A stretch of 64,000 nucleotides of DNA from Vulcanimicrobiota bacterium (GTDB lineage Bacteria > Vulcanimicrobiota > Vulcanimicrobiia > Vulcanimicrobiales > Vulcanimicrobiaceae). Positions 47,044-47,255 of this stretch are shown here, one piece after another. The DNA lies in contig CAWETW010000001.1 in NCBI GenBank assembly GCA_963812155.1, positions 544,001 to 608,000 of the forward strand, in the 5' to 3' direction. Positions within the stretch are counted from its first letter, which is position 1, and every line of letters starts with the position of its first letter. The notes under the pieces were generated by a model, which worked only from the letters and a program-made list of their open reading frames with translations, did no database searches and was not told where the DNA came from. Made by a program: the position numbers and the translations under genes.

Positions 47044-47225
47044 GCGAACCTCAATCGACCTCATACATTCGGGTTCAGCTCTGGAGCGACCCACGATACC
47101 GTTCGACATGGTTCGCCGGTAAAAGTTGGTGCGAGCGCCGATCTGAGCGACGGGCTGAAAATGCCCACGGATGACAACGGCGCTCTGACACCGCGTAGGG
47201 GATAGCATCTATGTCTATCCCCTAC
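47044..47225 (-). ncRNA. Predicted IS110 bridge RNA
   Basis: 5' hairpin 47195-47225; target-binding loop closed by GAGCGCCG/CGGCGCTC (47133-47185); donor-binding loop closed by GCGAACC/GGTTCGC (47044-47116); guides match the flank and the element end. Confidence 0.85.
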
Positions 47226-47255
47226 CTCTCAAGATATGAGGATGACACGGCATAG

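What the first reader, a model, noticed from the sequence alone, without database searches (positions are those of the whole stretch)
47044..47250. IS110 bridge RNA with readable guides: predicted target TGTCATC-CT-GAGC
Seen on the minus strand upstream of the recombinase: (1) an 11-bp hairpin (47195-47225); (2) a stem GAGCGCCG/CGGCGCTC enclosing TGTCATCC, a small GGGC/GCCC hairpin and GCTCAG; (3) a second stem enclosing ACGGTATC and GTATGAG. The chromosome just outside the element reads GTGTCATC-CT, matching the first guide. The element begins CT-CATAT, complementary to GTATGAG with one wobble. Established: IS621-type IS110 elements encode this hairpin, target-loop, donor-loop layout around a CT core. 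Inference: the target is TGTCATCCTGAGC and the donor junction is approximately ACGGTATCTCATAT, i.e. a natural programmable-recombinase guide, possibly from a poorly sampled lineage.
Basis: partly seen in the sequence, partly recalled or inferred. Interest (0 to 1): 0.88.

Follow-up and report, generated by a model that had tools for sequence, protein, structure and literature searches.

The report
Broken bridge-RNA transposon aimed at repeat
This is the surviving left half of an RNA-guided jumping gene whose guide reads the most common short repeat of its host genome, and intact relatives sit exactly where the guide predicts; the mechanism is known from E. coli IS621 and is seen here in a little-studied group of bacteria.

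Summary
Window 47044-47240 (minus strand) is the left end of an IS621-type IS110 element: 5' hairpin, target loop, donor loop, CT core, and AU/GU handshake bases as in IS621. All 7 intact relatives with the same target guide have the junctions TGTCATC-CT-CATAT and AC[AG]GTAT-CT-GAGCG; the target extends to 14 bases. Where guides differ, the flanks change with them (0 of 20,000 permutations match as well).

New here: the target is this genome's most abundant 13-mer (84 copies), the head of a REP-like repeat that brackets a small GIY-YIG (Ssn-like) nuclease gene. In 3 of 5 hosts tested, the guide matches that host's own repeat variant; in 2 it matches no repeat.

The window copy is a relic. The recombinase breaks off near residue 180, and its catalytic-serine half and right end are not found in the assembly. 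Expression is untested.

This scan noted REP-targeting bridge RNAs and Ssn cassettes before on other DNA. Verdict: new member of a known kind; the closest relatives are labelled Eremiobacterota.

The parts
47256..48023 (-). Upstream host gene (255 aa, no Pfam hit); stops 8 bases before the target half-site; possible source of read-through transcription
   Evidence: no terminator-like site in 46900-48200
47241..47247 (-). Left target arm TGTCATC, the head of the host repeat into which the element inserted
   Evidence: pieces from 4 of 4 public runs stop matching at 47247
47239..47240 (-). CT core, left boundary of the element
47231..47238 (-). Right donor arm CATAT (47234-47238) overlapping the -10-like hexamer TATCTT (47231-47236)
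   Evidence: homologs carry TATGAT/TATCAT here, 17 bp from a TTGAC hexamer of the right end in 20 of 21
47195..47225 (-). 5' hairpin of the bridge RNA (11 bp)
   Evidence: helix 1
47128..47192 (-). Target-binding loop domain
47169..47176 (-). Left target guide TGTCATCC
47143..47149 (-). Right target guide CGCTCAG, complementary to CT-GAGCG
47141..47142 (-). Target-loop handshake bases AU
   Evidence: IS621 A81/U82
47044..47116 (-). Donor-binding loop domain
47095..47102 (-). Left donor guide ACGGTATC
47060..47066 (-). Right donor guide GTATGAG (pairs with CT-CATAT, one G-T wobble)
47058..47059 (-). Donor-loop handshake bases GU
   Evidence: IS621 G166/U167
46475..47016 (-). 5' remnant of the IS110 recombinase: DEDD domain with four acidic residues, part of the coiled coil; no Transposase_20 domain. 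The frame runs on into foreign DNA to a stop at 46309
45748..46426 (+). Unrelated converging gene, frameshifted against an intact homolog in G097; lies where the rest of the element should be

Best explanation
An IS621-type IS110 element inserted at the CT of a host repeat just behind a gene's stop codon and later lost its right two-fifths. In intact members the excised circle joins a -35 (right end) to a -10 (left end) and transcribes a bridge RNA of about 180 nt. Its target loop pairs with TGTCATC-CT-GAGCG, its donor loop with ACGGTAT-CT-CATAT, and the recombinase swaps strands at the CT, with the AU and GU handshake bases favouring insertion. The target is the head of the genome's commonest repeat, a TGTC-tagged REP-like hairpin family that brackets a small GIY-YIG nuclease gene, so the element has many intergenic landing sites; relatives carry guides re-set to their host's own variant of the repeat. 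Shown here: sequence anatomy, junctions of intact relatives, guide-flank covariation, target abundance, truncation. Inferred from IS621: transcription, circle, chemistry, handshake role. The window copy cannot move by itself.
For: Junctions as predicted in 7 of 7 same-guide homologs. Right guide against right flank: 26 of 32 perfect over 5 bases, mean 4.78 against 2.38 permuted; 12 distinct guides 4.67 against 1.72; 0 of 20,000 permutations as high. Left guide against left flank: 24 of 34 at 6/7 or better in fixed register, 29 of 34 with register tolerance, 0 of 20,000. Third base of the donor arm follows its guide in 27 of 27 (20 G, 7 A). AU follows the right guide in 29 of 29 rows where the guide was found from the flank alone (29 of 37 rows). 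Junction promoter spacing 17 bp in 20 of 21. Target 13-mer 84 copies, top of all 13-mers, 0.03 expected. G024: 8 of 8 copies have the left flank its guide reads, 6 of 6 recovered right flanks too. An intact homolog passes NCBIfam NF033542 (228 against cut-off 140) and hits IS621 and ISCro4 structures at 1e-50 and 4e-53.
Against: No transcript evidence. The window's own right junction cannot be seen; the assembly is 83.85% complete. Homologs are kin, so permutation figures overstate. Guides were located with a pattern that fixed the AG core complement and the AT, and the right end with a fixed G[AT]AT, so those bases match by construction. Donor guides are only about half unpaired in free folds (0.45 and 0.50), and RNAalifold did not find the outer donor stem. 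In G018 and G088 the guide's target is not a repeat (2 and 0 copies). Rfam has no matching family.
Confidence: 0.93

Rival explanations
1. The relic is not dead: read-through from the upstream gene makes its bridge RNA, and the genome's other, full-length IS110 recombinase (C1:503083-503982) uses it in trans at the 84 repeat copies.
For: The guides and stems are intact; no terminator-like site before the left end; IS621 RNA is made by read-through and trans action was not excluded (PMC13626964 section 5); the second element's right end has the same left donor arm.
Against: The second recombinase is only 48% identical over the shared part and has its own RNA with other guides; no complete donor junction for the window's RNA is found in the assembly; closeness of the RNA to relatives may only mean a recent break.
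Confidence: 0.08
2. The repeat is chosen by the protein through its hairpin shape, and the RNA match is secondary.
For: 13 of 17 close intact homologs sit in a full repeat; a target stem-loop adds specificity for ISPpu10 (10.64898/2026.03.19.712850).
Against: 4 of 17 right flanks lack the repeat's tail by my pattern yet match the right guide in 4 or 5 of 5 bases; flanks follow guides base by base over 12 guide types; the CT core has no fixed place in the fold of 48 full repeats (16 open, 18 half, 14 paired). Shape may still add to the match.
Confidence: 0.04
3. The match between loop and flank is chance, or a piece of the repeat captured into the left end.
For: The repeat is abundant, so pieces of it turn up often.
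Against: The two guide halves lie on opposite strands of the target, as the bridge model needs, and change with the flanks in elements whose targets are not this repeat.
Confidence: 0.01

Closest known systems
IS621 (E. coli) and ISCro4/IS622 bridge recombinases, IS110 group (PMC11208160, PMC11208158; passages read)
   Same: RNA in the left end; 5' hairpin, target loop, donor loop; CT core; AU and GU handshake bases; junction promoter; insertion into REP-type repeats. IS621 donor ACAGTAT-CT-TGTAT against ACGGTAT-CT-CATAT here.
   Different: Different host group and target; natural 7-base right target guide (IS621 pairs 4, longer ones are known in orthologues); this copy is truncated.
ISPpu10 and ISPpu9 of Pseudomonas putida (10.64898/2026.03.19.712850, abstract and section 7; ISPpu9 from search listings only)
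   Same: IS110 elements that insert into many copies of an intergenic REP.
   Different: ISPpu10's target has a conserved stem-loop 5' of the core; here the repeat's variable hairpin lies 3' of the core and the 5' flank is not conserved.
Ssn nucleases with NTS/SRM repeats (PMC11893778; abstract and passages)
   Same: For the target repeat: a GIY-YIG gene of about 100 residues bracketed by inverted copies of a [CT]GTCA-headed hairpin repeat, and repeat-rich genomes tend to carry the gene. The Neisseria repeat is cited there as target of a phage recombinase.
   Different: 0 of 84 copies fit the published SRM pattern; longer and variable hairpin; the word IS110 does not occur in that paper's main text.
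CGTC-tagged REP superfamily (PMC3733652; passages)
   Same: Terminal tag that may read TGTC; intergenic; no RAYT partner (PF01797 not found in G000).
   Different: Described families have 8-9 bp stems, 4-5 base loops and a CCA tail; this repeat has a variable inner hairpin and a GTCGAAGGA tail.

Membership tests
IS621-type IS110 with bridge RNA | N-terminal DEDD domain (PF01548) with four acidic residues | tested here: met
   E 1.3e-30, residues 3-144; D, E, D, D present
IS621-type IS110 with bridge RNA | C-terminal Transposase_20 domain with catalytic serine | tested here: not met
   Lost in the window copy (130 bits against cut-off 140). Present in intact homologs of 85-87% identity, so the family passes and this copy is a fragment
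IS621-type IS110 with bridge RNA | Left-end RNA with 5' hairpin and two internal-loop domains | tested here: met
   16 of 42 pairs compensatory in 23 sequences; RNAalifold alone missed the outer donor stem
IS621-type IS110 with bridge RNA | Target guides covary with the flanks | tested here: met
IS621-type IS110 with bridge RNA | Donor guides match the element ends around a CT core | tested here: met
   25 of 27 left donor arms identical to the guide, partly by construction; free third base 27 of 27; seen in homologs, the window has no right end
IS621-type IS110 with bridge RNA | Promoter formed across the circle junction | tested here: met
   TTGAC hexamer, 17 bp, TATGAT-like in 20 of 21 intact homologs; sequence pattern only
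IS621-type IS110 with bridge RNA | Handshake dinucleotides behind both right guides | tested here: met
   AU in 29 of 29 located without assuming it; GU in 24 of 32
IS621-type IS110 with bridge RNA | RNA is expressed, binds the recombinase and programs recombination | not testable with these tools
   needs experiments; no RNA holder listed
Ssn nuclease / SRM repeat (for the target repeat) | Small single-domain GIY-YIG gene flanked on both sides by the repeat | tested here: met
   21 of 30 best homolog loci on both sides, 30 of 30 on at least one; 3 of 52 distant control stretches
Ssn nuclease / SRM repeat (for the target repeat) | Repeat fits the published degenerate SRM pattern | tested here: not met
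   0 of 84
Ssn nuclease / SRM repeat (for the target repeat) | Protein falls in CDD cd10448 / the Ssn clade | not tested
   no CDD library here; not compared with SsnA; no NCBIfam hit
Ssn nuclease / SRM repeat (for the target repeat) | Cuts single-stranded DNA beside the repeat | not testable with these tools
   needs an assay
CGTC-1 to CGTC-4 REP families | 8-9 bp stem, 4-5 base loop, CCA tail after a CGTC/TGTC tag | tested here: not met
   tag present, stem and tail differ

The most novel reading that the evidence does not exclude
A three-part system: a small Ssn-like nuclease keeps its own hairpin repeat in each host, and this IS110 clade re-sets its RNA guide host by host to follow that repeat and is functionally tied to it, for example the nuclease cutting single-stranded repeat DNA that aids or limits insertion, or target-to-target synapses of the recombinase reshaping and multiplying the repeat. 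The matching of guide, repeat variant and nuclease flank is seen in 3 of 5 hosts tested; the functional tie is untested.
Probability: 0.1. Interest if true: 0.7.

Novelty: new member of a known kind. Interest (0 to 1): 0.34.

Why it matters
It is a clean natural check of the bridge-RNA code far from E. coli: target and donor were read from a broken copy and then found at the ends of intact relatives. It supplies intact orthologs with a natural 14-base target match, a feature that raised efficiency when engineered into IS621. It names the landing pad as a repeat tied to an Ssn-like nuclease and shows single-base re-setting of guides to host repeat variants, a tractable case of how guides evolve. 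None of this changes the known mechanism.

Tried and rejected
Rfam: no bridge-RNA family reached a useful score (2 weak hits), so I built a model from 23 homologs; the window's 216 bits is by construction. Right end or C-terminal half of this element elsewhere in the assembly: not found. Empty insertion site: the one ortholog of the upstream gene among 60 relatives (G175) has neither repeat nor element behind it, so no empty site was seen. Expression: no RNA holder listed. Public contigs laid on the stretch were relatives, not this strain. Idea that the break at 46475 was a bridge-guided event: a CT lies at the break, but the 7 bases before it match the left guide in only 3 of 7; not supported. 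Idea that a replication origin or terminus explains the repeat's strand bias: GC skew, gene direction and 8-mer polarity show no switch at that place. Y1/RAYT partner for the repeat: not found in G000. Guide matches a host repeat in G018 and G088: no. The fixed-register left-guide rule mis-set several rows by 1-2 bases; both versions are reported. Earlier notes on this genome or on look-alike DNA: none.

Full report
Observation. The window is G000:C1:544001-608000. The strand folds at -91.2 kcal/mol, z -3.07, with 3 of 200 shuffles as good. Behind it lies an IS110 DEDD domain (PF01548, E 1.3e-30) with its four acidic residues. Rfam holds no matching family.

The copy is broken. Homology to intact relatives ends at about 46475, near residue 180, and a related public contig diverges at the same base. 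No Transposase_20 match and no right junction of this element is found in the assembly, which is 83.85% complete. A frameshifted, unrelated gene on the other strand follows the break. The copy scores 130 bits on NCBIfam NF033542 (cut-off 140), the intact homolog L002 228.

Intact relatives confirm the prediction. Loci came from 201 genomes of the family (28 with a match) and from the best 80 of 471 genome hits and the best 80 of 410 metagenome hits. I analysed only loci with at least 44% identity to the L002 protein, de-duplicated to 44 rows; weaker ones were left out, and the middle of the listing was cut. Seven intact rows share the window's target guide. All 7 have left flank TGTCATC, start CT-CATAT and right flank CT-GAGCG; the donor left arm is ACGGTAT in 5 and ACAGTAT in 2. 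The target is therefore 14 bases, one more than proposed. IS621's donor is ACAGTAT-CT-TGTAT (10.64898/2026.08.31.748434, passage). Most of the closest named records are labelled Eremiobacterota or Vulcanimicrobiota; one close one is labelled Candidatus Acidoferrum. The lineage of G000 is inferred from this.

Covariation. Right guide against right flank: 26 of 32 rows perfect over five bases, mean 4.78 against 2.38 in permutations; one row per distinct guide (12) 4.67 against 1.72; 0 of 20,000 permutations as high. Left guide against left flank: 24 of 34 at 6/7 or better in fixed register, 29 of 34 when a shift of -1 to +2 is allowed for data and control alike, 0 of 20,000. The free third base of the donor arm follows its guide in 27 of 27. 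Caveats: kin are not independent, and the locating patterns fixed the core complement, the AT and part of the donor arm. Located from the flank alone, the right guide was found in 29 of 37 rows and was followed by AT in all 29; the donor-loop bases are GT in 24 of 32. These equal IS621's A81/U82 and G166/U167 (PMC11208158, passages). A TTGAC hexamer and a TATGAT-like hexamer lie 17 bp apart across the reconstructed circle junction in 20 of 21 intact rows, as described for IS621 (PMC11208160, passages).

Structure. On 23 left ends, the three-domain structure has 94.1% of cells paired and 16 of 42 pairs with a change on both sides; 0 of 500 shuffles reach this and slid controls give 34-45%. The structure was drawn from the window row. 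Unguided RNAalifold found the hairpin, the target domain and the inner donor stem, but paired the element's first bases with the right donor guide instead of the outer donor stem. Mean unpaired probability: target guides 0.65 and 0.63, donor guides 0.45 and 0.50, stems 0.05. A model built from these rows finds matches in 28 of 150 family genomes and in loci outside the training set.

The target is the host's main repeat. TGTCATCCTGAGC occurs 84 times, the commonest 13-mer of the genome, against 0.03 expected; 81 continue with G. 48 of 84 run on through a variable hairpin to a GTCGAAGG tail, and 26 of 55 clusters lie within 40 bases behind a same-strand stop codon against 129 of 2000 random places, as does the window's site. 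The 14-mer occurs in 112 of 201 family genomes. Guides follow the host's variant in 3 of 5 hosts tested. The window's 14-mer: 81 in G000, 0 in G024, G018 and G088, 10 in G027. G024's guide: 60 in G024, at most 2 elsewhere. G027's guide: 273 in G027, 0 elsewhere. The guides of G018 and G088 match only 2 and 0 sites in their hosts. G024 holds 8 copies: 8 of 8 left flanks and 6 of 6 recovered right flanks fit its guide; two right ends lay outside what I fetched. 13 of 17 close intact rows sit in a full repeat by my pattern.

What the repeat belongs to. No Y1/RAYT gene was found in G000. A 103-residue GIY-YIG gene at C3:434045-434353 is bracketed by inverted arrays of the repeat. Among the 30 best homolog loci, 21 carry the repeat on both sides and all 30 on at least one, against 3 of 52 distant control stretches. 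40 of 45 genomes with at least 10 copies of the 14-mer hold the gene at E up to 1e-15, against 48 of the other 156. In G024 and G027 the gene is flanked by the variant that their elements' guides read. Earlier notes of this scan led me to the Ssn family (PMC11893778; abstract and passages), which has this layout. The published SRM pattern fits 0 of 84 copies and I did not compare the protein with SsnA, so I call it Ssn-like. The TGTC tag recalls the CGTC superfamily, but stem and tail differ (PMC3733652, passages).

Mechanism. Inferred from IS621: excision to a circle, junction promoter, RNA pairing with both strands of target and donor, strand exchange at CT. An intact homolog hits the ISCro4 and IS621 structures at 4e-53 and 1e-50. 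The window copy lacks the serine domain and the right end and cannot do this alone. Read-through could still make the RNA (no terminator-like site; shown for IS621 in PMC13626964, abstract and section 5), and a full-length IS110 with 48% identity over the shared part and other guides lies at C1:503083-503982, so use in trans is possible but unlikely.

Novelty. Bridge RNAs and REP targeting are published for IS621 and ISPpu10 (10.64898/2026.03.19.712850; abstract and section 7); ISPpu9 I saw in listings only. PMC9778887 (passages) notes phage integration at the Neisseria repeat. A search for Eremiobacterota with IS110 gave 0 papers, one for GIY-YIG with repetitive extragenic palindromic and flanked 0; one for the repeat 12-mer gave 10 papers whose titles are off the topic (9 listed, none opened). 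In the supplements of PMC11208160 the repeat 12-mer occurs 4 times each in two files, at least once among natural target sequences of another element, while a 12-base signature of this clade's RNA occurs 0 times (two files were cut when stored and one could not be read). The supplements of PMC11893778 gave no hit for the lineage or the repeat in the 14 files held; two further files were not searched. bioRxiv supplements were closed and may list such elements. This scan noted the same arrangement in several other genomes. Tallies include unpublished genomes (G008, G021, G028, G051, G109, G120, G134, G142, G163, G171, G218); no junction, covariation or structure figure rests on them.

Verdict: real, correctly read, a new member of a known kind; interest 0.34.

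Noticed in passing
G000:C3:433769-434446 (L251): Small GIY-YIG gene bracketed by inverted arrays of the target repeat; Ssn-like cassette, recurrent across the family.
   Followed up: yes
G000 contigs C1 and C3; G125: The repeat's strand is polarised over hundreds of kb: 31 of 32 copies on minus in C1; on C3 mostly plus before and mostly minus after the GIY-YIG gene at 434 kb; 27 against 124 in single-contig G125. GC skew and gene direction do not switch there. Unexplained.
   Followed up: partly
G000:C1:502850-504046 (L030): Second, full-length IS110 with its own bridge RNA and the same left donor arm; its left junction is not recognisable. It lies between two copies of a tRNA-like 23-mer at about 502703 and 504232.
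   Followed up: partly
G000:C3:716292: Orphan right end of the second element type, without a recombinase gene nearby by tblastn.
   Followed up: no
L008, L051, L136 flanks: The second element type inserts into a long GGGGGG...CCCCCC-ended palindrome, a different target family.
   Followed up: no
L011 left junction: The left flank reads like a donor arm, not a target: a possible natural donor-by-donor product, as described for IS621.
   Followed up: no
L013, L017, L018, L026: More distant IS110 elements insert at other positions or variants of related repeats, with matching guides by eye.
   Followed up: no
G024:C1 (L233-L240): Eight copies of one element in a single contig; at least four are interrupted by further insertions.
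   Followed up: partly
L029 (G162:C3:62032-62279): Another relic that keeps the whole bridge RNA with only a few codons of recombinase.
   Followed up: no
window 45748-46426 (+): Gene of unknown function with one frameshift against its homolog in G097.
   Followed up: partly
G000:C4:196250-196492: A further Transposase_20 match in a 476-residue frame, not examined.
   Followed up: no
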